Below are positions 5,754 to 14,683 of a stretch of 32,000 bases of DNA, piece after piece. Position 1 is the first letter of the stretch, and each line of letters opens with the position of its first letter. Origin of the DNA: a virus; the IMG/VR virus record IMGVR_UViG_3300045988_137512, positions 10,274 through 42,273 of that record; one strand, given 5' to 3'. The translations under genes and the position numbers were made by a program. The notes under the pieces are model-generated. The model searched no databases and was not told the origin of the DNA. It saw nothing but the letters and a program-made list of their open reading frames with translations.

Positions 5754-6182
5754 ATGTTAAATATTGATCCAAATTATATTCTTGCCCTTATTACTTTTGT
5801 AGCACTTATTTCTCCGTCTATTGCAAATTATATAAACTGCAAATACAACACTAAAATACGTAAATTTGAAATACTAGAAGACAGAAATTATCAGTTGTCA
5901 ATTTTCAAAAGAGATATTTATTTAAATTATCTTGAATGTGCATCTTACATTATTGTTTCTAAAACAATGAATATACAAAGCGAGCAACAATATAAAACAT
6001 ATTTTTTAAAAGCTTTATCTATTTCAGATAATCAAATCACTGAATATTTAATCAGGATTAATGATTTAATTACTGATAAAAAATACAAAGATGCATTTGC
6101 GTTGCTTCAAGAGCTATCTCCATTAATCCACAATCTAATTGAATTCGATATCTCTTTACACGAGCAAAAGACTGACAAGTAA
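5754..6182 (+). CDS. Membrane-anchored hypothetical protein (142 aa), opposite-strand moron
   Basis: AGAGGT ribosome-binding site and a perfect TATAAT at 5725-5730. N-terminal TM segment ILALITFVALISPSIANYI. It is one of only three plus-strand genes in the window. Confidence 0.6.
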   Translation: MLNIDPNYILALITFVALISPSIANYINCKYNTKIRKFEILEDRNYQLSIFKRDIYLNYLECASYIIVSKTMNIQSEQQYKTYFLKALSISDNQITEYLIRINDLITDKKYKDAFALLQELSPLIHNLIEFDISLHEQKTDK

Positions 6183-6310: not shown

Positions 6311-7210
6311 CTACTTTCTTTTCGCATAACTCAATGATTCAAGATTCTGCTTTTTCATTTTCCTTGTTGTACGAACATAGATTCTTGTGGTTTCTAAACT
6401 AGAATGCCCAAGAATATCAGCCAATTCAGCAATCGCATTTTCACCATTCTGCATCAAATACTGAATGGCGAACAAATGTCTAAATGCATGAGGATGTACT
6501 TTGCCAAGCTTAATCCCTCTGCATTTACCGGCAATCATCTTTAAGTCTCTAGACAATACACGAGCATTTACAGGGTTTTTCTTATCAGAAGATGTAAATA
6601 TACACCCCTCTTCAATTTTGTTGTCCTTGCAGTATTTAAGGAGCTCTCGACGCAAGTCTGAACGTAGAATGATTCCTCTACCTTTTCCTTTGTTCATAAC
6701 ATACACATTGTCATCCGTTACTGCTTCTACAGTGAAGAACTGTAATTCACTCAATCGAATGCCCGTATATCCAAATACCTTCATGATCTCGTATAAATCC
6801 ATACGATTGATTTCACGGGCTTTTTTCAATAGCCTTTGAAATTCATTAGGTTCTAAAATATCATCCAAAGAATCATCTTTCTGGACTCTTACGTTCTTCA
6901 ATAAGTTTTTTGAATAATATTTTTTAAGTTTCAGGAAATTAAAATCATCATCCGCATCAATGATTTCGCTATATTTAATAAATTTATTAATGATCACAAT
7001 ATAGTTGTTTACTGTACTGATTTTATAATCATGCAGCAGTTTATCTTTAACACCAACTATATCGGACTTCTGTATTTCACCATCAGGCAATGAGTTAACA
7101 AACAAGATAGTTACATGTTTGTATTTACGAATGGTATTCTTACTTTTTTCATCCGCTGTTTCTTCTTCTATGAACCCGTCAATTTTTGTTTGTAACTCAT
7201 CCTTAGTCAT
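6311..7210 (-). CDS. XerC/XerD-like tyrosine recombinase (second recombinase of the phage)
   Basis: GIRLSEL (Arg), HPHAFRHLFA (HxxR) and LGHSSLETTRIYV (His...Tyr). About 300 aa with a SAM-like N-terminal domain. Confidence 0.85.
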   Translation of the reverse strand: MTKDELQTKIDGFIEEETADEKSKNTIRKYKHVTILFVNSLPDGEIQKSDIVGVKDKLLHDYKISTVNNYIVIINKFIKYSEIIDADDDFNFLKLKKYYSKNLLKNVRVQKDDSLDDILEPNEFQRLLKKAREINRMDLYEIMKVFGYTGIRLSELQFFTVEAVTDDNVYVMNKGKGRGIILRSDLRRELLKYCKDNKIEEGCIFTSSDKKNPVNARVLSRDLKMIAGKCRGIKLGKVHPHAFRHLFAIQYLMQNGENAIAELADILGHSSLETTRIYVRTTRKMKKQNLESLSYAKRK

Positions 7211-8069: not shown

Positions 8070-8471
8070 ATGGATGATAATATCGGTTCAAGAGTCAAAG
8101 AGATTCGACAAGAATTGAATTTAAGCATGGAAAAATTTGGTGCTCCTATCGGAGTTTCAAGAAGTTCTATTAATAACATCGAAAAAGGACTTCATCATCC
8201 ATCAGAAATCGTTATTAGATCCATATGTCGTGAATATAATATTGACTATGCTTGGTTAACAGAAGGTATTGGTGAAAATAAATTTATTTCCATTCCTGAG
8301 TCAAAGATAGATCAAATCATGGAAGATTATGGCTTAACTGAAAAAGAACGGCCACTTGTTCGAGGATATTTGGAAGCGCCTGAAGAAGTCAGACAACAAG
8401 TTGCCGATTATTTAAATTCAATTGTTGAAAGAGAAATAGCAAGAAGAGAAAAAGAAAAGAACAACAAATAG
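8070..8471 (+). CDS. XRE-family HTH repressor (cI-like, no S24 peptidase domain)
   Basis: IGSRVKEIRQELNLSMEKFGAPIGVSRSSINNIEKG is an HTH_3 motif. The gene is divergent from the early operon and has a GAGGTGA ribosome-binding site. Confidence 0.8.
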   Translation: MDDNIGSRVKEIRQELNLSMEKFGAPIGVSRSSINNIEKGLHHPSEIVIRSICREYNIDYAWLTEGIGENKFISIPESKIDQIMEDYGLTEKERPLVRGYLEAPEEVRQQVADYLNSIVEREIARREKEKNNK

Positions 8472-8486
8472 GTTGTTCTTTTTTGG
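8459..8486 (+). terminator. Intrinsic terminator after the repressor
   Basis: GAACAAC-AAATAG-GTTGTTC followed by TTTTTT. Confidence 0.65.
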
Positions 8487-8558
8487 TTAGATTTATTGTA
8501 TGATTAATATAGAAAATGGAAAGCGTTTACTTGACGTAAACAAAAGAGGGTTAAAAAA

Positions 8559-9572
8559 ATGAAATTATTCAAAACTATTGGGATTGCTACGCTTGCACTA
8601 TCTATGTGCACAGGATGTACAAGCTACAAAGAAAGAGTTAAAGCTGATAACCAAACAGAAGAAATCACCGACAGAGAATCAGATGATTTAAAAGCAAATT
8701 CTTTTGAAATTGGTGATTTTACTATATACTTACCTGAGTATTTTCAAAATGTCGTAAGTACAAAAGAAGGGCTATCATTCAGGGCGGATGAAGGATATCC
8801 TATTTTAACCATCACTTTAATGGATATGGAATTGAATAGTGAAGCAGCGGATGCCTTTATGGATGCTTTAAAAGACAGAGATGATTTCATGGAGGATACC
8901 GATACAAGTTATGGAATAAAAACATTAAATAGTGCCGGTCGTACTGTATATTATTCAGAAGTAACAGGAAATTTGACGTTAAATGATGATGACAGTAACA
9001 ACGATACAAGCACACCGTCAAAATGCTTTATATATCTTTTATCAAATAACAATAAAACATCATTTATCAGTATGATATTAATTCAGCCTAACGAAGGATT
9101 GAAATACGATTACGAAAATGAATTTGATAGTATTGTTGATAATGTAGTTGTTAACGATAAAAAAGAGGAAGAAGAACAAAGCAATACAAATTCAACCACT
9201 TCAAACTCTTCTTCAAACAATTCATCTTCTTCACCAACTACAACTACTCCAAGTACAAATTCAAATGCATCAACTCCATCTCCAACAACAGGAGAAAAAA
9301 ATGCACTAAGAACTGCAAGAGAATATTTAAATATTTCTGCATTCTCTTATTCAGGATTAATTCATCAACTAGAATATGAAGGTTACTCAACAGAGGAAGC
9401 CACTTATGCAGCTGATAACTGCAACACAAACTGGAACGAGCAGGCCGCTAAATCAGCAAAAGAATATTTAGACATATCGTCATTCTCTCGACAAGGATTA
9501 ATAGATCAATTGATTTATGAAGGTTATACACAAGAACAAGCAGAATATGGTGTAACACAAAACGGATATTAA
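8559..9572 (+). CDS. ltp: Ltp-family surface lipoprotein (superinfection exclusion) with a large extra N-terminal domain
   Basis: Signal/lipobox-like MKLFKTIGIATLALSMCTGC. S/T/N-rich linker. Two C-terminal Ltp repeats: NALRTAREYLNISAFSYSGLIHQLEYEGYSTEEATYA and AAKSAKEYLDISSFSRQGLIDQLIYEGYTQEQAEYG. Confidence 0.8.
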   Translation: MKLFKTIGIATLALSMCTGCTSYKERVKADNQTEEITDRESDDLKANSFEIGDFTIYLPEYFQNVVSTKEGLSFRADEGYPILTITLMDMELNSEAADAFMDALKDRDDFMEDTDTSYGIKTLNSAGRTVYYSEVTGNLTLNDDDSNNDTSTPSKCFIYLLSNNNKTSFISMILIQPNEGLKYDYENEFDSIVDNVVVNDKKEEEEQSNTNSTTSNSSSNNSSSSPTTTTPSTNSNASTPSPTTGEKNALRTAREYLNISAFSYSGLIHQLEYEGYSTEEATYAADNCNTNWNEQAAKSAKEYLDISSFSRQGLIDQLIYEGYTQEQAEYGVTQNGY

Positions 9573-9576
9573 AAAT

Positions 9577-9612
9577 ATAAGCTAGGGTAAATTCCCTAGC
9601 TTATATTTCTTC
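9577..9612. terminator. Bidirectional intrinsic terminator (ltp and the convergent micro-ORF operon)
   Basis: ATAAGCTAGGG-TAAATT-CCCTAGCTTAT with T-rich tracts after the stem on both strands. Confidence 0.65.
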
Positions 9613-9768
9613 TTTGCCAACTACTTCATCAGACCAAATTTCTTCTTGCTTCATTTAGCCTTCATAGCATTCAAATCTTTCTGCAATTGCGATTCTCTTT
9701 TGTTCTTCCATTTAGTATTCTTCTTTTAAATTTGCGCGTAAATACCTATAGGTATTAGTGTTATTCAT
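9601..9768 (-). other. Three contiguous in-frame micro-ORFs (18, 18 and 17 aa) joined by TAA-ATG junctions
   Basis: MNNTNTYRYLRANLKEEY, MEEQKRIAIAERFECYEG and MKQEEIWSDEVVGKEEI. The units are 57, 57 and 54 nt, and each stop is immediately followed by an ATG. Confidence 0.3.
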
Positions 9769-9898
9769 TTTTAGATGATAACAGCAGTCTTTGTGCATGA
9801 TTATACAGAATTTGCAGATCATCCACGTTAAGTTTTTCTGCTAGGATAATTAATTTCGTTATCCATAAATCCCTTTCCATAAGATCATCCCTTTCCAT
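9761..9898 (-). CDS. Small helical hypothetical protein (45 aa, or 39 aa from the second ATG)
   Basis: MERDDLMERDLWITKLIILAEKLNVDDLQILYNHAQRLLLSSKNE. GGAAAGGGA lies upstream of the second ATG. Its stop overlaps the first micro-ORF start. Confidence 0.35.
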   Translation of the reverse strand: MERDDLMERDLWITKLIILAEKLNVDDLQILYNHAQRLLLSSKNE

Positions 9899-9942
9899 TC
9901 ATTTTTTATGAATAAAAAGAAAAACGTTTTCCTTATTCTAAT

Positions 9943-9970
9943 ATAATAAGTCTTAAATTCTATATGTCAA
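9943..9970 (-). promoter_or_regulatory. Sigma-70-type promoter for the micro-ORF operon
   Basis: On the minus strand, TTGACA (9965-9970) with a 16-17 nt spacer and TATTAT (9943-9948). Confidence 0.5.
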
Positions 9971-10055
9971 TGTCTGTTTAGTATTAAATTGTACAAATAT
10001 AATACTAAAATGTGCAAATGGTTATAAATTACATTACCAGTCTCGGATTTTTTTC

Positions 10056-10064
10056 GGGGGGGGG
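10056..10064. repeat. G9 homopolymer in a very AT-rich spacer
   Basis: ttttcGGGGGGGGGtagaa. The neighbouring 60 nt (10081-10140) is about 15% G+C by hand count. Confidence 0.9.
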
Positions 10065-10168
10065 TAGAATTTTTAATGTACTTTTGGTTATATTATTAAT
10101 AACTTATTTTGCTTTGTAAATATTTATTAATATTTTGCATTTTTCATTACTCTTTTTAAAATGTGATG

Positions 10169-10290
10169 TTATTATTCATGTGTACATGATAAATATTTTA
10201 GGCTTTTTTCTATTTCCTCAAGAAAAGATTAGCAGAGAATGAAAAACAGATAGTGGTGTTGAGCAGCATACACTATCTGTTTTTCATTTT
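10169..10290 (+). ncRNA. Candidate convergent small RNA sharing the bidirectional terminator
   Basis: TTGCAT-16-TAAAAT at 10135-10162, no credible ORF, and it runs into the 10242-10285 hairpin plus T-tract. Confidence 0.2.
10242..10285. terminator. Bidirectional intrinsic terminator
   Basis: AAAAACAGATAGTG-(15 nt loop)-CACTATCTGTTTTT, a perfect 14-bp stem flanked by A/T tracts. Confidence 0.75.
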
Positions 10291-10446
10291 ATATTCATTC
10301 ATAACTTGTTTAATATCTTCACCAACTATATTCCAATCATTAGATAATGCTATATAGTCGTCATAAAACGATCCTATTTTAATCTCAGCCTTTGGAAACA
10401 AGTTTATATTTTTAAGTCCTTTTATTACATAATCGATTATCTTCAT
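10273..10446 (-). CDS. Small soluble hypothetical protein (57 aa), not in the ORF track
   Basis: AGAGGTG ribosome-binding site 4-5 nt upstream of the ATG at 10444-10446. Translation is MKIIDYVIKGLKNINLFPKAEIKIGSFYDDYIALSNDWNIVGEDIKQVMNEYKMKNR. The stop lies inside the terminator stem. Confidence 0.5.
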   Translation of the reverse strand: MKIIDYVIKGLKNINLFPKAEIKIGSFYDDYIALSNDWNIVGEDIKQVMNEYKMKNR

Positions 10447-10474
10447 ACACACCTCTAACTATTTTAGTTTATAA

Positions 10475-10505
10475 ACAAAAAAAGACCTTGTCAAATGACA
10501 AGGAC
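10475..10505 (-). terminator. Intrinsic terminator closing the integrase-proximal RNA
   Basis: Minus strand CCTTGTC-ATTT-GACAAGG followed by TCTTTTTTTG. Confidence 0.75.
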
Positions 10506-10868
10506 CGATTCAGTGACATCCGCTTTTGCGTTGCCAAGGTAAATTAATCAATGGTATACAACTATGTTGCTACCAAGGTTCATTTTGTGTATATGATGGG
10601 GCGATAGTTCCCACATCTCATCAGAATTTACATTCCTACCCTTGACACTTTCGTGCGCGATAGCCATCTTTCTATCCTCACATACACAATCAGAATGTTT
10701 TCTTTCAGTCAACAGACCTATCCAACTTGAGGTAAACACATACAACCCTACGGAAGCTATAAACACTATGCATTATGGAACACAATGTTTAATCATAGCT
10801 TAACAGAATCAAATCTGTAAAAGTCTCAATCACCACATATTCCCTTATAAATGGGTGCTAGTTAAGAC
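10478..10868 (-). ncRNA. Candidate roughly 390-nt structured non-coding RNA (or structured int 3' UTR)
   Basis: No credible ORF in any frame. G+C is 42-43% by hand count over 10501-10680, against 15% in the nearby spacer. At least six local hairpins, including a GNRA-capped stem (10644-10658). Possible TTGTAA-18-TAATAT promoter at 10875-10904. It ends at a strong terminator. Confidence 0.4.
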
Positions 10869-10898
10869 CTATTTATATTAACATTATTTATGTCACAT

Positions 10899-11996
10899 TT
10901 ACAATAACTTATTCATCATATCTACAATATTCTTATCTTTTGTATCAAACCAGTGTGCATATGTATTATGCAATGTTTCAACTGTATCTCCTAAGCGTTT
11001 GGCTATATCAAAATCAGAGAATCCTGCGCCTGCCATGTTATTAATTAGAAATGATGCATGTGAATGTCTAAAATCGTGAATTCTTATTTTAGGCAATCCA
11101 TCATCTTTTTCTTTTGCTTTATTATATGCATCATCAAATCTTCTTTGTACTGTCTGAGGTGATATTGGTTTATAATATCCAAATACAAATTTATCTTTTG
11201 TGAAATCATCCCATTTAGAACATTCTAAAAACCATTCTCGAAGCATTTTAGACAATGTATTAGGCATTGTGATAGTTCTATAGCTATTGTTTGTTTTTGG
11301 CGGTGTAAGCCACTTATTAGGATCTTTCTCTTTGTATCTATATGTTTTATTGATGTCTATCGTTTGTTTTCTAAAATCAATGTCCTTCCATTGTAGGGCC
11401 ATTGCTTCACCCTTTCTTAATCCCATATAGAATAAAACAGAATAAAAACATTTCATCATTTGTTCATCTACTTCTTCAATAAACAAATCAAAATCATATT
11501 GCTGCCATATTGTCATTTCTTCTTTTCTTTCATTCAATCTAAGATCACGTTTTACATATGTCATTGGATTGGTTGGAATGTATTCAGTAGTAACACCAAA
11601 TTTATATAGCTTATTTAAAAAGAAATATATTCTTGATACATATGCCTTTGAATATTTCTCATCAAATTTGTTGATCAAGTTTTGCATTTGCCTTTTGTCT
11701 AGAAAATCAATATCTTTCATTTCCTTAGAAAGAACATTGTACAAATATTCATCTGATTTTAGTGTTGATTCTTTTACGTACTTTTTATTATATTCTTTAA
11801 AAGCTTTATATAGTCTATCAAAATTCATGTCGGATGGAAGCATAAAAAAATCTTTCCTGAATTCAACCTCAGCTTTTTGTGCTTCCCATTTAGAATCAAA
11901 ACCACGCTTACGATATCTCTTTATACATTTACCATCTTTATATATTTTTCCGGCAAACATATATTTTCCTGTTTTCTTATCTAATTCCACTGCCAT
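10899..11996 (-). CDS. int: Phage tyrosine integrase
   Basis: GLRKGEAMAL (Arg), IRIHDFRHSHASFLI (HxxR) and LGDTVETLHNTYAHW (Tyr). AAGAGGG ribosome-binding site. Adjacent to the attP-like site. Confidence 0.9.
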   Translation of the reverse strand: MAVELDKKTGKYMFAGKIYKDGKCIKRYRKRGFDSKWEAQKAEVEFRKDFFMLPSDMNFDRLYKAFKEYNKKYVKESTLKSDEYLYNVLSKEMKDIDFLDKRQMQNLINKFDEKYSKAYVSRIYFFLNKLYKFGVTTEYIPTNPMTYVKRDLRLNERKEEMTIWQQYDFDLFIEEVDEQMMKCFYSVLFYMGLRKGEAMALQWKDIDFRKQTIDINKTYRYKEKDPNKWLTPPKTNNSYRTITMPNTLSKMLREWFLECSKWDDFTKDKFVFGYYKPISPQTVQRRFDDAYNKAKEKDDGLPKIRIHDFRHSHASFLINNMAGAGFSDFDIAKRLGDTVETLHNTYAHWFDTKDKNIVDMMNKLL

Positions 11997-12047: not shown

Positions 12048-12230
12048 TATTTTAATATCAAATTGTACCCCAATATACCCCAAGACAAATAAAAAAGCCT
12101 TTAAATAAAGGCTTAAAATTCAATGGAGCAGATGAGGGGATTATATAAATACCTCATATCTATTGATATTTGATGTTATTTACATCGTTATCTACGTGTT
12201 TTGATAACACTTTGTTGTTTTGTACCCCAA
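12034..12230 (-). other. attP-like site: tRNA 3'-end mimic core, core inverted repeats and arm-type repeats
   Basis: Minus strand AATCCCCTCATCTGCTCCA (12124-12142) looks like T-arm, acceptor and CCA. Core inverted repeat ATGAGG (12132-12137) / CCTCAT (12152-12157). TACCCCAA at 12066, 12076 and 12223. Inverted GGGGTA at 12034. Confidence 0.6.
12087..12114 (-). terminator. Intrinsic terminator immediately 3' of the tRNA-like core
   Basis: AAGCCTTT-ATTT-AAAGGCTT followed by TTTTTTATTTG on the minus strand. Confidence 0.75.
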
Positions 12231-12305: not shown

Positions 12306-13382
12306 TTATTGAACCTCAATCAATGGGCCACAGTTTACCCAAACTCCGCCAATCTTTGCAAGATTCTTTTTCACATTGACTTCATCCACACGAATACGTG
12401 TTACATATACAATTGCATTTGTGGTGTGTAACACATTGTCGTTATATCCGTCTGAGTTTGGCACTTTGTCGACCAATCGAATTGGAAACCAACCGCCTAA
12501 TTGAGATAAGTAACAACATAAATCATCACCAATCTTTTTCAAGCCTTGATTACCAATTTTCATATGTACAGATGTAACATAGCTACCTTCATGCAAAATT
12601 TGGTCGATAGCTTCTGCGCTAGACTGTGTGGCGCCAACTGGCACATGAGGGTCTGTATCAATACCAGCATCATTAGTCCATCCAATCGCTACTCCATTAC
12701 GATCAACACGATATGGATATTTTGTTCCTTTAATTACTCTACCAATGACACCTGACCAATCACCTTTTTTAACTGTAGAAGTTCCGTAGCAATTCACACT
12801 CAATGTGTTTGTACAGATAGGTAAATTAACTGAATATTTTTCTCCACTTGGAGTTGTAGGTTTTGGTGTTTCAACCTTTCCATCTAACTTTGCATTTACT
12901 TCATTAGCCAATTGTGGCATACGTGCTTCCAACCATGCTCCAGGGCATGATGTAGCCGCAAACATTTTGTGCATAGTCAATGATCCGCTAGAATTTCCTG
13001 TATAGTTCAATCTAAATCCATATCGTTTACAAATATCAACACATAGATTCACCAAGCTATCCCAAGTAGCTTGCGTCATTTCTCCAGTTGCGTTATTAAT
13101 GTTTCCACATTCAATTGTAATTGATTGAGAATCATTCAACCAATTTGAACTTGTCCATGCAGCATTTTCTTCATCAACACTGCATGCAATGTCTCCATTA
13201 ATTCCAATACAATAATTGGAAGATGCTTGACGAGTATTTCGCGCAAAATAATCTGCACATTGTTTACCACTCCATGCCGCAGCCATGTAGTGTGGAGTGA
13301 TTTTACAAACCTTATATCCAAAACGACCATCATAATGTTGTGATGTTCTGTTACAATATGTTGCTAATCCGGAATATGACAT
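12306..13382 (-). CDS. Endolysin: N-acetylmuramoyl-L-alanine amidase (Amidase_2/PGRP-like) with C-terminal SH3-like wall-binding repeats
   Basis: KITPHYMAAAWSG...SITIECGN...MHKMFAATSCPG resembles amidase_2. It lies downstream of the holin. Confidence 0.8.
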   Translation of the reverse strand: MSYSGLATYCNRTSQHYDGRFGYKVCKITPHYMAAAWSGKQCADYFARNTRQASSNYCIGINGDIACSVDEENAAWTSSNWLNDSQSITIECGNINNATGEMTQATWDSLVNLCVDICKRYGFRLNYTGNSSGSLTMHKMFAATSCPGAWLEARMPQLANEVNAKLDGKVETPKPTTPSGEKYSVNLPICTNTLSVNCYGTSTVKKGDWSGVIGRVIKGTKYPYRVDRNGVAIGWTNDAGIDTDPHVPVGATQSSAEAIDQILHEGSYVTSVHMKIGNQGLKKIGDDLCCYLSQLGGWFPIRLVDKVPNSDGYNDNVLHTTNAIVYVTRIRVDEVNVKKNLAKIGGVWVNCGPLIEVQ

Positions 13383-14263: not shown

Positions 14264-14683
14264 CTACGCAATCTTTTTAATGATAATGTTTGCATTTTGA
14301 ACAGATAGATCTAAACCACTGTCATTTGCTAATGCAATTGTATAAGATGCACCACATGGAACTTGAATTAAAGTGTCTCCACTCACATTTCCGTATGCAC
14401 TTGCAGTTGCAACAGTATAAATAGATTGTGTTCCACCAATTGCTTCTCCGTTTAGTTCAAGCACTAGAGAAGCTTGTCCTGCCGCTGCACTCGTAATGTC
14501 CGCAGTATAAGTTACTTCATAGATACCTTGCTTTGTTAGTGTAAACAATCCGCTTCCTAGATCGTGTGCCAACCATCCTTTACATGGACACTGGCATGAT
14601 TTTGATCTTACACGATCTGTAGGAAACAAAACATTATTTGAATTATCGACTGTCTGAACAGCCGTAGCAATACTATTAATCAT
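14264..14683 (-). CDS. Stand-alone BclA-C-terminal/C1q-TNF-like jelly-roll domain protein
   Basis: GIYEVTYTADITSAAAGQASLVLELNGEAIGGTQSIYTV...YTIALANDSGLDLSVQNANIIIKKI resembles the BclA_C pattern. AGGAGG ribosome-binding site. Preceded by a terminator. Confidence 0.5.
   Translation of the reverse strand: MINSIATAVQTVDNSNNVLFPTDRVRSKSCQCPCKGWLAHDLGSGLFTLTKQGIYEVTYTADITSAAAGQASLVLELNGEAIGGTQSIYTVATASAYGNVSGDTLIQVPCGASYTIALANDSGLDLSVQNANIIIKKIA

What the first reader, a model, noticed from the sequence alone, without database searches (positions are those of the whole stretch)
10475..10904. Roughly 390-nt ORF-free, GC-enriched, hairpin-dense RNA candidate just downstream of the integrase
There is no credible ORF in any frame between the int stop (10899) and a strong minus-strand terminator (CCTTGTC-ATTT-GACAAGG plus U-tract, 10475-10505).

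Composition:
- G+C is 42-43% by my hand count over 10501-10680.
- The adjacent spacer is about 15% G+C.

Local stems on the minus strand:
- 10803-10818, ACAGA/TCTGT.
- 10755-10800, an 11-bp bulged stem AGCTAT..AAACA / TGTTT..ATAGCT.
- 10659-10676, GATAG/CTATC.
- 10644-10658, capped by a GAAA tetraloop.
- 10595-10617.
- 10555-10593, TATACA/TGTATA.

Other features:
- Imperfect internal repeats ACCTTGG(TA)GCAAC at 10530-10540 and 10566-10579.
- A possible promoter, TTGTAA-18-TAATAT, overlapping the int stop codon.

The int-to-repressor interval of temperate phages is a known hotspot for lysogen-expressed accessory and defence cargo. I could not match this sequence to any RNA family I know, including riboswitches, T-box, tmRNA, hammerhead and group I/II introns.
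Basis: partly seen in the sequence, partly recalled or inferred. Interest (0 to 1): 0.7.

Follow-up and report, generated by a model that had tools for sequence, protein, structure and literature searches.

The report
Tandem drum and skipping-rope phage RNAs
The gene-free stretch after this phage's integrase encodes two already catalogued structured RNAs of unknown function (drum and skipping-rope) back to back; elsewhere each is the constant neighbour of a predicted RNA-cutting enzyme that this phage lacks, so here they may act as stand-alone antidotes.

Summary
Rfam places two known motifs on the minus strand, 3 nt apart: drum (RF02958, 10801-10690, 79.6 bits) and skipping-rope (RF02924, 10686-10588, 53.7 bits). 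Only about 254 nt (10818-10565) is conserved among related phages; the leader and tail are not.

The window is a ~45-kb temperate phage. Its attP lies upstream of int, not inside the finding.

- drum is followed by an intrinsic terminator and a PBECR4 RNase gene in 81 of 120 bacterial loci.
- All 39 testable PBECR4 loci found by protein search carry drum.
- All 70 testable PBECR3 loci carry skipping-rope just downstream.
- No conserved protein partner accompanies either pair.
- Many phage copies lack the RNase, often inside tRNA arrays.

Close relatives have drum, skipping-rope, a terminator, PBECR3 and a 57-aa gene. In the window, 92 nt replace the terminator and PBECR3. The whole phage has no PBECR3 or PBECR4.

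Best reading (inferred, about 0.4): these RNAs neutralise or otherwise partner BECR-fold RNases in a type-III-toxin-antitoxin-like way, and this phage carries an orphan double RNA. Both RNA families are known; their function is not.

The parts
10875..10904 (-). Possible promoter, TTGTAA (10904-10899), 18-nt spacer, TG-extended TAATAT (10880-10875). It overlaps the int stop codon.
   Evidence: Read directly from the sequence. It matches only 8 of 12 consensus positions, so the scan does not list it. It is not conserved in L092/L126-type relatives. L071-type relatives have a better promoter, TTGAAA-17-TAATAT, at the equivalent place. Function is inferred only.
10821..10870 (-). Leader hairpin of about 50 nt, followed by UUUU. 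It may be the int 3' hairpin or part of the RNA's 5' leader.
   Evidence: Present in the centroid fold. It is shared only with L020/L022 and, in diverged form, with L092/L126. L071-type relatives have a different leader.
10803..10818 (-). Small 5' hairpin, ACAGA-UUUGAU-UCUGU, directly before drum. It marks the start of the conserved cassette.
   Evidence: The stem is invariant and the loop varies (UUUGAU, UUAGGU, UCAAAU) in all seven family members aligned. The blastn homology block starts here.
10690..10801 (-). drum RNA (Rfam RF02958), full length.
   Evidence: cmscan gives 79.6 bits against a gathering score of 43, E=1.3e-13, model positions 1-112. My own model R1 gives 80.4 bits. Across 26 drum sequences, 14 of 16 pairs show changes on both sides and 91% of cells are paired, against 67.5% in shuffles and 31-45% in slid controls.
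10588..10686 (-). skipping-rope RNA (Rfam RF02924), full length. The outer stem extends to 10689/10585. An extra GUAA-capped hairpin (10636-10623) lies inside a 20-nt insert (10644-10625).
   Evidence: cmscan gives 53.7 bits against a gathering score of 36.7, E=2.6e-10, model positions 1-80. Model R2 gives 60.3 bits. 13 of 18 pairs have compensatory changes in 36 sequences. The insert hairpin changes GGAAU/AUUCU to GGGAU/AUCC(U/C) in relatives, and the outer stem changes GUGUAUGUG/CAUAUACAC to AUGUACGUG/CACGUACAU.
10504..10587 (-). Non-conserved 3' tail holding the imperfect repeats ACCUUGGUAGCAAC (10579-10566) and ACCUUGGCAAC (10540-10530).
   Evidence: Homology to L071/L162-type relatives stops at 10565. 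Repeat 1 aligns with the 5' half of their terminator hairpin GGCCUUGUUAAUGCAACAAGGCC. The segment 10564-10473 replaces the 390 nt (terminator plus PBECR3 gene) found in the relatives.
10476..10503 (-). Intrinsic terminator: a 7-bp stem CCUUGUC/GACAAGG, loop AUUU, then U7.
   Evidence: Found by the terminator scan. It is conserved in L022 at 98.9% identity.
10273..10446 (-). p57, a conserved 57-aa ORF (MKIIDYVIKGL...) with a Shine-Dalgarno sequence AGAGGTG. In relatives it follows PBECR3 by 3-16 nt.
   Evidence: 48 homologues at 84-100% identity, with no Pfam, PHROG-function or PADLOC assignment. It lies directly after PBECR3 in L071-type loci and in L162-L165. A p57-like N-terminal region (E=4e-11) occurs in or just before the DUF2335 ORF that precedes skipping-rope in L094-type phages.
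10899..11996 (-). Tyrosine integrase (context). It is upstream of the cassette on the same strand.
   Evidence: Pfam Phage_integrase at 3.2e-19. All cassette-bearing relatives have the same 365-aa integrase.
12124..12140 (-). attP core (context): 17 nt identical to the 3' end of host tRNA-Gly(GCC).
   Evidence: In the integrated relatives L162/L164/L165, homology to the window begins inside tRNA-Gly (L162 5959; the tRNA spans 5902-5975), after host thrS, tRNA-Ser and tRNA-Asp.

Best explanation
**What is there (shown).** The interval is a minus-strand RNA locus of a ~45-kb temperate phage. It encodes two known structured RNA motifs fused 3 nt apart. A short hairpin comes first, then drum (10801-10690), then skipping-rope (10686-10588). 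The unit ends at the terminator 10503-10486.

**What the motifs partner with (shown).** Each motif is the fixed genomic partner of one family of predicted BECR-fold endoribonuclease.
- drum is followed by an intrinsic terminator and then a PBECR4 gene.
- skipping-rope lies directly after a PBECR3 gene. In this phage family it lies directly before one, separated by a terminator.

In this phage the PBECR3 gene of the close relatives has been replaced by 92 nt. No PBECR4 is present anywhere in the genome. Both RNAs are therefore orphans.

**How it probably works (inferred).** The RNAs bind and neutralise their cognate RNases, as the RNA antitoxin does in a type III toxin-antitoxin system. The fused orphan RNA would then be made from the integrase side of the prophage or phage. 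It would protect the phage or lysogen against PBECR3- and PBECR4-type RNases supplied by the host, by resident prophages or by superinfecting phages.

**Confidence.** Identity of the RNAs about 0.97. Partnership with the RNases about 0.9. Antidote mechanism about 0.4.
For: **Identity**
- Full-length Rfam hits above the gathering scores.
- Covariation in my own alignments.

**Partnership with the RNases**
- In 81 of 120 bacterial drum loci, a PBECR4 frame starts at or just after drum on the same strand.
- Every example inspected has a GC-rich hairpin plus U tract between drum and the Shine-Dalgarno/start of PBECR4.
- Loci chosen by protein alone give the reciprocal result. 39 of 40 PBECR4 loci have drum just upstream, and the 40th has no upstream DNA. 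70 of 80 PBECR3 loci have skipping-rope 40-80 nt downstream, and the other 10 are cut within 110 nt.
- A named example is Streptococcus suis phage phiJH1301-1: 'spbA' (a PBECR3 homologue), then skipping-rope 19 nt later, then att.

**No conserved protein partner near either pair**
- The largest neighbour clusters cover 3 of 64, 7 of 120 and 6 of 40 loci.

**Asymmetry expected of a toxin and its antidote**
- The RNase is never found without the RNA.
- The RNA is often found without the RNase. Only about 6 of 22 drum groups and about 10 of 34 skipping-rope groups in RNA-selected viral loci have the RNase.
- Several PBECR4 genes are split into fragments next to an intact drum.

**Either gene order occurs for skipping-rope and PBECR3**
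- This argues for a trans-acting partner rather than a cis-acting leader.

**This phage**
- Window 12140-10565 and 10472-9500 match L162 at 92-94% identity. The 390 nt holding the terminator and PBECR3 are replaced by 92 nt.
- No PBECR3 or PBECR4 appears in six-frame searches of the window or of the rest of the genome.
- Both RNAs still score like those of RNase-bearing relatives.

**An independent lineage**
- ~150-kb phages (L052, L151) carry the same drum, 3-nt spacer, skipping-rope fusion without an RNase, at the head of a tRNA array.

**Background**
- BECR-fold RNases are typical conflict toxins that need immunity (PMC5512222; 10.64898/2026.08.28.747851).
Against: - There is no expression, binding or toxicity data for any of these components.
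- PBECR domains were described mainly as injected phage effectors in polyvalent proteins, not as toxins of toxin-antitoxin pairs (PMC5512222). The solo proteins may not be toxic to the cell that makes them.
- An aptamer-like RNA, then a terminator, then a gene is also the layout of a riboswitch or attenuator.
- In this phage family a small protein (p57) follows PBECR3 and could be its protein immunity factor. That would leave the RNAs with another role.
- Known type III antitoxins are short tandem repeats cut by a ToxN-fold toxin. These RNAs are single, complex folds, and the enzymes have a different fold.
- PADLOC has no model matching PBECR3, PBECR4, p57 or the DUF3800 protein.
- The host of this phage was not identified, so it is unknown whether the phage ever meets PBECR3 or PBECR4 RNases.
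- The loci were collected with consensus-derived exact patterns, which favours canonical copies.
Confidence: 0.42

Rival explanations
1. The RNAs are required cofactors, scaffolds, guides or processed substrates of the RNases, not inhibitors. An orphan copy on a phage would work with, or titrate, an RNase supplied in trans by the host or another element.
For: - The same obligate adjacency fits a cofactor as well as an inhibitor.
- Weinberg et al. judged these motifs complex enough for a 'sophisticated biochemical function' (PMC5737381).
- Other nuclease-linked RNAs from the same discovery series turned out to be guides (from my own knowledge: HEARO/OMEGA RNA of IscB).
- A DUF3800 RNase-H-like gene sits next to the cassette in L092.
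Against: - A cofactor without its enzyme is useless unless the enzyme comes in trans. Yet most phage copies, including two independent fused versions, lack the enzyme.
- Split PBECR4 genes next to an intact drum fit an antidote better.
- The motifs show no variable guide-like segment. The variable parts are stems that covary.
Confidence: 0.2
2. The RNAs serve a phage function unrelated to the RNases, tied to tRNA biology or RNA architecture (as is suspected for ROOL and GOLLD). The RNase adjacency is a secondary association.
For: Many drum and skipping-rope copies lie inside the tRNA arrays of 90-180-kb phages, sometimes with ROOL (L015), and with no RNase nearby.
Against: - All 39 and all 70 testable reciprocal associations hold, with fixed geometry. 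That is too strict for a secondary link.
- A tRNA-array position also fits an antidote against tRNA-cutting BECR enzymes. From my own knowledge, colicin E5 and colicin D are tRNases.
Confidence: 0.15
3. The cassette is a decaying remnant. It was a cis-acting leader or 3' UTR element of the PBECR3 operon, left without function when PBECR3 was deleted.
For: - Relatives have PBECR3 38 nt after skipping-rope, and the window lost exactly that gene.
- The structured RNA, terminator, gene layout resembles an attenuator.
Against: - Both motifs are intact, and their scores equal those of RNase-bearing relatives.
- The PBECR3-less form is found at 99.8-100% identity in several independent metagenomes.
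- drum has no PBECR4 in any member of this phage family, yet it keeps its stems.
- L126-type and L052-type phages also keep the RNA pair without an RNase.
- skipping-rope occurs on either side of PBECR3.
Confidence: 0.12
4. The region encodes a small protein, the 72-aa ORF 10548..10766 on the minus strand.
For: The ORF is open in all seven close relatives, and one gene caller called it in L164.
Against: - It has a GTG start inside the drum stem and no Shine-Dalgarno sequence.
- Substitutions show no third-position excess (14/12/20, p=0.32).
- Its C-terminus differs among relatives.
- There is no Pfam hit.
- The same span is fully explained by two covarying RNA models. Only 9 of 26 drum and 21 of 36 skipping-rope sequences have a stop-free sense frame across the motif.
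Confidence: 0.02
5. The region is attP, host-derived recombination homology, or a sib-like retroregulator of int.
For: It lies directly downstream of int, as lambda attP and sib do (from my own knowledge). The leader hairpin 10870-10821 could be an int 3' element.
Against: - attP is the tRNA-Gly 3' end at 12140-12124, upstream of int. In integrated relatives the cassette lies inside the prophage.
- No tRNA or tmRNA is found in the window.
- The cassette occurs in unrelated phages that lack this integrase.
Confidence: 0.02

Closest known systems
drum RNA motif (Rfam RF02958; Weinberg et al. 2017, PMC5737381)
   Same: Full-length covariance-model match. It has the invariant GGGUU, ACCNCAA, UAG and GAAAGAAAA blocks and the P1/P2 and 3' hairpins.
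   Different: - No terminator of its own and no PBECR4 gene follows it. It runs into skipping-rope after 3 nt.
- In 81 of 120 genomic copies the order is drum, terminator, PBECR4.
skipping-rope RNA motif (Rfam RF02924; same paper)
   Same: Full-length match with the outer stem, three hairpins, and the conserved GAGG, GAAA, CGC and GAGAUG blocks.
   Different: - It carries a 20-nt insert that forms an extra GUAA-capped hairpin. This insert marks a subtype found in this phage family.
- The terminator is 84 nt away rather than adjacent.
- The PBECR3 neighbour is missing.
Type III toxin-antitoxin systems (ToxIN, CptIN, TenpIN) - compared from my own knowledge
   Same: - An RNA gene, an intrinsic terminator and an endoribonuclease gene lie on one strand (drum/PBECR4, and skipping-rope/PBECR3 in this family).
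- There is no protein antitoxin.
- The modules are carried on mobile elements.
   Different: - The RNA is a single complex fold of 80-112 nt, not a tandem array of ~36-nt repeats.
- The enzyme is BECR-fold (Pfam PBECR3/PBECR4), not ToxN/AbiQ-fold.
- Toxicity and neutralisation are untested.
Pseudo-ToxI of Pectobacterium phage PhiTE (a phage-encoded RNA antitoxin mimic) - from my own knowledge
   Same: A phage carries the RNA half of an RNA-RNase pair without the RNase. That is the situation of the window and of many large phages.
   Different: No escape phenotype is known here, and the targeted RNase in the host is not identified.
DUF3800-associated RNA motifs (DUF3800-I to XI; PMC5737381)
   Same: They are structured RNAs tied to a predicted nuclease gene. 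The authors noted a possible link between DUF3800 genes and the genes near drum and skipping-rope. One relative (L092) has DUF3800 directly upstream of the cassette.
   Different: - No DUF3800 gene is in the window.
- Only 1 of about 400 collected loci has one.
- The RNA motifs are different.
ROOL / GOLLD large phage RNAs
   Same: They occur in phages and prophages next to tRNA genes. L015 has drum, tRNAs and ROOL in one array.
   Different: They are far larger (about 570 nt and more) and have no reported RNase partner. No sequence or structure relation was detected.

Membership tests
drum RNA (RF02958) | Covariance-model score at or above Rfam's gathering score, over the full model | tested here: met
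   79.6 bits against 43, model positions 1-112 of 112.
drum RNA (RF02958) | Conserved sequence blocks and covarying stems P1, P2 and the 3' hairpin | tested here: met
   The window has every invariant column of alignment A1. The stems are supported by 14 of 16 pairs with changes on both sides.
drum RNA (RF02958) | A Rho-independent terminator directly 3' of the motif (PMC5737381) | tested here: not met
   In the window, skipping-rope follows drum after 3 nt, and the first terminator is at 10503-10486. The typical copies inspected have the terminator within about 10 nt. This is a context feature, not part of the Rfam model.
drum RNA (RF02958) | Associated protein gene nearby (identified here as PBECR4, PF18813) | tested here: not met
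   No PBECR4 in the window or in the rest of the phage genome. It is present in 81 of 120 genomic drum loci.
skipping-rope RNA (RF02924) | Covariance-model score at or above the gathering score, over the full model | tested here: met
   53.7 bits against 36.7, model positions 1-80 of 80, with a 20-nt insertion.
skipping-rope RNA (RF02924) | An outer stem enclosing three hairpins, with covariation | tested here: met
   13 of 18 pairs are compensatory in 36 sequences that include the window. The outer stem covaries within the phage family.
skipping-rope RNA (RF02924) | 3' Rho-independent terminator | tested here: inconclusive
   A strong terminator exists, but 84 nt downstream. Relatives have one within about 10 nt.
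skipping-rope RNA (RF02924) | Associated protein gene nearby (identified here as PBECR3, PF18812) | tested here: not met
   Absent from the window. It is present 38 nt downstream in L071/L162-type relatives and in all 70 testable PBECR3 loci.
Type III toxin-antitoxin system | An RNA antitoxin gene and an endoribonuclease toxin gene adjacent, separated by a terminator | tested here: not met
   The window has no RNase gene. The layout is met in relatives and in the canonical drum/PBECR4 module.
Type III toxin-antitoxin system | The antitoxin is a tandem array of short repeats processed by the toxin | tested here: not met
   The RNAs are single-copy complex folds. Only occasional duplicate skipping-rope copies occur (L374-type, L330, L110, L131).
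Type III toxin-antitoxin system | Toxin of the ToxN/AbiQ fold | tested here: not met
   The partners hit Pfam PBECR3 and PBECR4, which are BECR-fold families. One unrelated neighbour had a ToxN hit at E=0.084, below the curated cut-off and with no significant matched stretch.
Type III toxin-antitoxin system | The protein is toxic and the RNA neutralises it by direct binding | not testable with these tools
   Needs expression and binding experiments.

The most novel reading that the evidence does not exclude
drum and skipping-rope are the RNA antidotes of a so far unrecognised class of two-gene RNA-RNase conflict modules: BECR-fold toxins PBECR4 and PBECR3, held in check by large, single-copy, tertiary-structured RNAs. 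Phages, from this 45-kb temperate phage to ~150-kb phages with tRNA arrays, would then carry the RNAs alone, even fused as a double antidote, to disarm such RNases of hosts or rival elements.
Probability: 0.3. Interest if true: 0.8.

Novelty: new member of a known kind. Interest (0 to 1): 0.5.

Why it matters
drum and skipping-rope have been listed since 2017 as 'sophisticated' bacterial and phage RNAs with no known function.

This locus and its relatives make that question directly testable. Each RNA has one precise protein partner, a predicted BECR-fold RNase, with a fixed gene geometry and no other conserved component. Nature also supplies RNase-less versions on phages.

If the RNAs neutralise the RNases, three things follow:
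- RNA-antitoxin (type III-like) systems would extend to a different toxin fold and a very different kind of RNA.
- The presence of such RNAs in phage tRNA arrays would be explained.
- A new kind of phage anti-defence or superinfection-immunity cargo would be defined.

If they do not, the finding is simply two known Rfam motifs in a prophage cargo slot.

Tried and rejected
- **tRNA/tmRNA.** ARAGORN found none in the window, so the region is not a tRNA- or tmRNA-derived att site.
- **Other Rfam families.** A permissive Rfam search of 10200-11000 gave only chance-level microRNA and snoRNA hits besides the two real ones.
- **Known phages.** blastn and megablast of the region and of 22 kb of the window against 50,697 deposited phages found nothing. 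The integrase has only relatives below 35% identity there.
[quoted passage not shown] It is not held, so I could not check whether the PBECR link was already stated.
- **Later literature.** Searches found no functional study of either RNA. I found no paper linking PBECR proteins to RNAs.
- **DUF3800 as the partner.** Only one locus (L092) has it; a jackhmmer search over all loci found no other.
- **PADLOC and the PDB.** PADLOC has no model for PBECR3, PBECR4, p57 or the DUF3800 protein. The PDB has no sequence relative of PBECR3 or PBECR4.
- **First PBECR3 alignment.** Alignment A5 was too divergent for a locus scan. A narrower alignment, A6, worked.
- **Host identification.** The host is known only as a low-G+C bacterium from human gut metagenome assemblies, with thrS, tRNA-Ser, tRNA-Asp and tRNA-Gly at the integration site.
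- **Promoter-like site 10821-10792.** TTTACA-18-TATGAT would start transcription inside drum, and it is not conserved in relatives. I treat it as fortuitous.
- **The 72-aa ORF.** Rejected as coding.
Full report
**1. Observation**

The interval lies between the stop codon of a 365-aa tyrosine integrase (10899..11996, minus strand; Pfam Phage_integrase 3e-19) and a minus-strand intrinsic terminator at 10503..10486. Its G+C is raised. It is 42.2% over 10501-10680, against 33.4% for the window and 18.2% for the 33-nt spacer after the terminator.

The whole 431 nt folds only modestly better than shuffles, with a z-score of -2.2. A 72-aa GTG ORF (10548..10766, -) crosses the region. Its substitutions among seven relatives show no codon periodicity (14/12/20, p=0.32), its C-terminus is not conserved, and it has no family match.

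**2. Identity**

cmscan against Rfam 15 gives exactly two matches above the gathering scores in the 32-kb window. Both are inside the finding, on the minus strand, full-length and 3 nt apart:
- drum RNA (RF02958): 10801-10690, 79.6 bits against 43, E=1e-13.
- skipping-rope RNA (RF02924): 10686-10588, 53.7 bits against 36.7, E=3e-10.

The exception is the TATACA/TGTATA stem at 10555-10593. That strand belongs to the skipping-rope outer stem (10689-10679 with 10595-10585), which covaries in relatives.

The window's skipping-rope carries a 20-nt insert that forms an extra GUAA-capped hairpin (10636-10623). This hairpin also shows compensatory change in relatives.

- drum: 14 of 16 pairs change on both sides. 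91% of cells are paired, against 67.5% in shuffles and 31-45% in slid controls.
- skipping-rope: 13 of 18 pairs are compensatory.

Weinberg et al. [quoted passage not shown] The supplement that names those proteins is not held. I found no later functional work.

**3. Genomic setting**

The window is a temperate siphovirus-like phage. On the minus strand the order is:
- structural genes, then holin and amidase (12306..13382)
- attP, then int
- the RNA cassette, then a 57-aa ORF ('p57', 10446..10273)

An Ltp lipoprotein gene and an HTH repressor gene follow on the plus strand (8070..9572). The early genes come after them on the minus strand.

Metagenome contigs 99.8-99.9% identical to the window supply the remaining ~13 kb. 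One scaffold carries the phage twice, 45 kb apart, so the genome is about 45 kb.

Integrated relatives (L162, L164, L165) sit after host thrS, tRNA-Ser, tRNA-Asp and tRNA-Gly(GCC). Homology to the window begins inside the tRNA-Gly 3' end. The attP core is therefore window 12140-12124, upstream of int, and not in the finding.

**4. What is conserved**

Thirteen viral contigs of the same phage family (same 365-aa integrase) carry the drum and skipping-rope pair. Outside the nearly identical L020 and L022, homology covers only window ~10818-10565 (87-91% identity). This block runs from a small hairpin (ACAGA-loop-UCUGU, invariant stem, variable loop) to 23 nt past skipping-rope.

The leader (10819-10898) and the tail (10504-10564) differ between subgroups. 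The slot between int and the lysogeny module holds different cargo in different relatives:
- drum, skipping-rope, terminator, PBECR3 (about 122-127 aa), p57
- DUF3800, then drum and skipping-rope (L092)
- drum and skipping-rope alone (L126, L135)
- a DUF2335 membrane protein with a p57-like N-terminal region, then skipping-rope without drum (L094 type)
- DUF6978 plus DUF1828/1829, then skipping-rope (L100)

Compared with L162 and L071, the window lacks exactly 390 nt: the terminator hairpin plus the PBECR3 gene. Repeat 1 aligns with the 5' half of the relatives' terminator hairpin.

**5. Protein partners of the two RNAs**

I collected loci by RNA pattern and clustered their neighbouring ORFs.

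*skipping-rope and PBECR3*
- skipping-rope lies 16-47 nt downstream of a PBECR3 gene (PF18812) on the same strand in about ten of 34 sequence groups.
- In the window's family the order is reversed: skipping-rope, terminator, PBECR3.

*drum and PBECR4*
- drum lies 8-79 nt upstream of a PBECR4 gene (PF18813) on the same strand in six of 22 viral groups.
- It does so in 81 of 120 bacterial genome loci, which are mostly Lachnospiraceae, Oscillospiraceae and other Clostridia.
- Every drum-to-PBECR4 junction inspected contains a GC-rich hairpin plus U tract, followed by a Shine-Dalgarno sequence and a start codon.

*The reciprocal test, with loci chosen by protein alone*
- 39 of 40 PBECR4 loci have drum immediately upstream. 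The 40th has no upstream DNA.
- 70 of 80 PBECR3 loci have skipping-rope 40-80 nt downstream. The other ten are cut off within 110 nt.

*Further observations*
- No other protein is conserved near either pair.
- Some ~110-165-kb phages carry both modules at separate loci.
- A deposited example is Streptococcus suis phage phiJH1301-1. Its order is lysin, 'spbA' (a PBECR3 homologue), skipping-rope 19 nt later, then att.

[quoted passage not shown] They were described in phage polyvalent proteins and as solo phage proteins (PMC5512222). My alignments keep invariant His and Ser/Lys/Arg positions. Neither the library nor the PDB links them to an RNA.

**6. Orphan RNAs**

Most phage copies of either RNA have no RNase nearby. 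Many lie in the tRNA arrays of 90-180-kb phages, once together with ROOL.

A second, unrelated lineage (L052 and L151, ~150 kb) has the same drum, 3-nt spacer, skipping-rope fusion (75 and 61-67 bits). It sits at the head of a tRNA array, without an RNase.

Several genomic PBECR4 genes are split into fragments beside an intact drum.

In the window's phage, six-frame profile searches of the window and of the rest of the genome find no PBECR3 or PBECR4. drum has no PBECR4 in any member of this phage family.

**7. Interpretation**

*Shown:* the identity of the RNAs, the extent of the cassette, the position of attP, the strict RNA-RNase pairing and its geometry, and the loss of PBECR3 here.

*Inferred:* the RNAs neutralise their RNases. 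Five observations point this way:
- The RNA, terminator, RNase layout matches type III toxin-antitoxin loci.
- No protein immunity partner is conserved near either module.
- The RNase is never seen without the RNA, while the RNA is often seen alone.
- RNase genes decay next to intact RNAs.
- skipping-rope works in either order relative to PBECR3, which argues against a purely cis-acting leader.

On this reading the window carries a fused double orphan antidote. It would protect the phage or lysogen against PBECR3- and PBECR4-type RNases of hosts, resident prophages or superinfecting phages. This would be comparable to the pseudo-ToxI RNA of phage PhiTE (from my own knowledge). I put this at about 0.4.

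*Rivals:*
- The RNA is a cofactor, guide or substrate of the RNase (0.2).
- The RNA has a tRNA-related or architectural role independent of the RNases (0.15).
- The cassette is a functionless remnant of a cis element after PBECR3 loss (0.12). Against this: the scores are intact, the same form recurs in several metagenomes, and other RNase-less lineages keep the pair.
- The 72-aa ORF is a real gene (0.02).
- The region is attP or a sib-like element (0.02).

*Caveats:*
- No expression or biochemical data exist.
- p57 could be the protein immunity factor of PBECR3 in this family.
- Solo PBECR proteins may not be toxic to the cell that makes them.
- The loci were gathered with consensus-derived patterns.
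- The host is unidentified.

**8. Novelty and verdict**

The two RNAs are known Rfam families, so the finding itself is a new member of known kinds. It is not a new RNA class.

What may be new:
- the naming of the partner proteins as PBECR4 (drum) and PBECR3 (skipping-rope)
- the strict reciprocal association
- the recurrent fused, RNase-less form on phages

I could not check these against the unavailable supplement of PMC5737381. Interest is moderate (0.5). The locus is ordinary as an annotation, but it turns the open question of what these RNAs do into a simple co-expression experiment.

Noticed in passing
window 10273-10446 (-): p57 is a conserved 57-aa protein of unknown function (motif F.DD..LSNDW..VG.DI). 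It directly follows PBECR3 in relatives and is kept here although PBECR3 is gone. A p57-like N-terminal region (E=4e-11) occurs in or just before the DUF2335 membrane-protein ORF that precedes skipping-rope in L094-type phages. It could be a protein immunity or accessory factor.
   Followed up: partly
window 12124-12140 (-); L162 5902-5975: The attP core is the last 17 nt of host tRNA-Gly(GCC). Integrated relatives lie after thrS (with a T-box leader), tRNA-Ser, tRNA-Asp and tRNA-Gly, with tmRNA and smpB close by. A terminator at 12114-12095 follows the core.
   Followed up: yes
window 6311-7210 (-): A second tyrosine recombinase (299 aa, Phage_integrase 2e-18) lies among the early genes. It is conserved in all relatives of the phage family. 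Its role is unknown; it could be a Xer-like, plasmid-resolution-type or inversion enzyme.
   Followed up: no
window 9573-10272: A 700-nt stretch of 28% G+C between p57 and the Ltp gene. It has a run of about nine C (~10052-10060), two near-consensus promoter-like sites (for example TTGACA-16-TATTAT, 9970-9943, minus strand) and small ORFs (9712-9898). The IMG/VR contig L022 begins inside it, at window 10075.
   Followed up: no
window 10246-10280 (-): A hairpin ACAGAUAGUG...CACUAUCUGU plus a U run overlaps the p57 stop codon. In L092/L126-type phages this hairpin follows skipping-rope directly. The segment holding the tail, first terminator and p57 therefore looks like an insertion relative to them.
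   Followed up: partly
genome loci L224, L170, L226, L173, L202, L177, L252, L171, L216, L188: PBECR4 reading frames are split into two or three fragments immediately downstream of an intact drum RNA. The RNase appears to be decaying while the RNA is kept.
   Followed up: partly
L052 6259-6456 (-), L151 8931-9128 (+): ~150-kb phages carry the same drum, 3-nt spacer, skipping-rope fusion as the first element of a tRNA array; the next tRNA starts 10 nt after skipping-rope. The identical 3-nt spacing in two unrelated phage groups suggests either a common origin or a structural constraint on the fused unit.
   Followed up: partly
L015 3980-4091 and 9002-9570: A 181-kb phage contig has drum, seven tRNA matches and a full-length ROOL RNA (315 bits) within 8 kb. 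Large phages seem to gather several orphan structured RNAs in their tRNA arrays.
   Followed up: no
L374-L376, L378, L382, L383 (~1899-2154); L330; L110; L131: Two skipping-rope copies occur in tandem downstream of one PBECR3 gene in the first three sets of loci; in L131 the upstream gene is a sigma-factor-like ORF. The second copy is more divergent in the L374-type loci, L330 and L110. This is a hint of repeat amplification of the RNA, as seen in type III antitoxin arrays.
   Followed up: no
L410 (Streptococcus phage phiJH1301-1, KX077891.1 42735-43208): The gene annotated 'spbA protein' at the lysin-att end of S. suis prophages is a PBECR3 homologue. A skipping-rope RNA (70.3 bits) lies 19 nt downstream and is not among the features listed for this stretch of the record. 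This is a cultivable system in which to test the pair.
   Followed up: partly
L156/L159 (ENA scaffold_81, 90.8 kb): The same phage appears twice on one scaffold, 45 kb apart. This is an assembly concatemer, which implies a circular or terminally redundant genome of about 45 kb.
   Followed up: partly
window 14264-14683 (-) and 8559-9572 (+): A BclA_C-domain protein lies next to the lysis genes. An Ltp-type lipoprotein (a family linked to superinfection exclusion) lies next to the repressor. Both are lysogeny or host-interaction cargo of the same phage.
   Followed up: no
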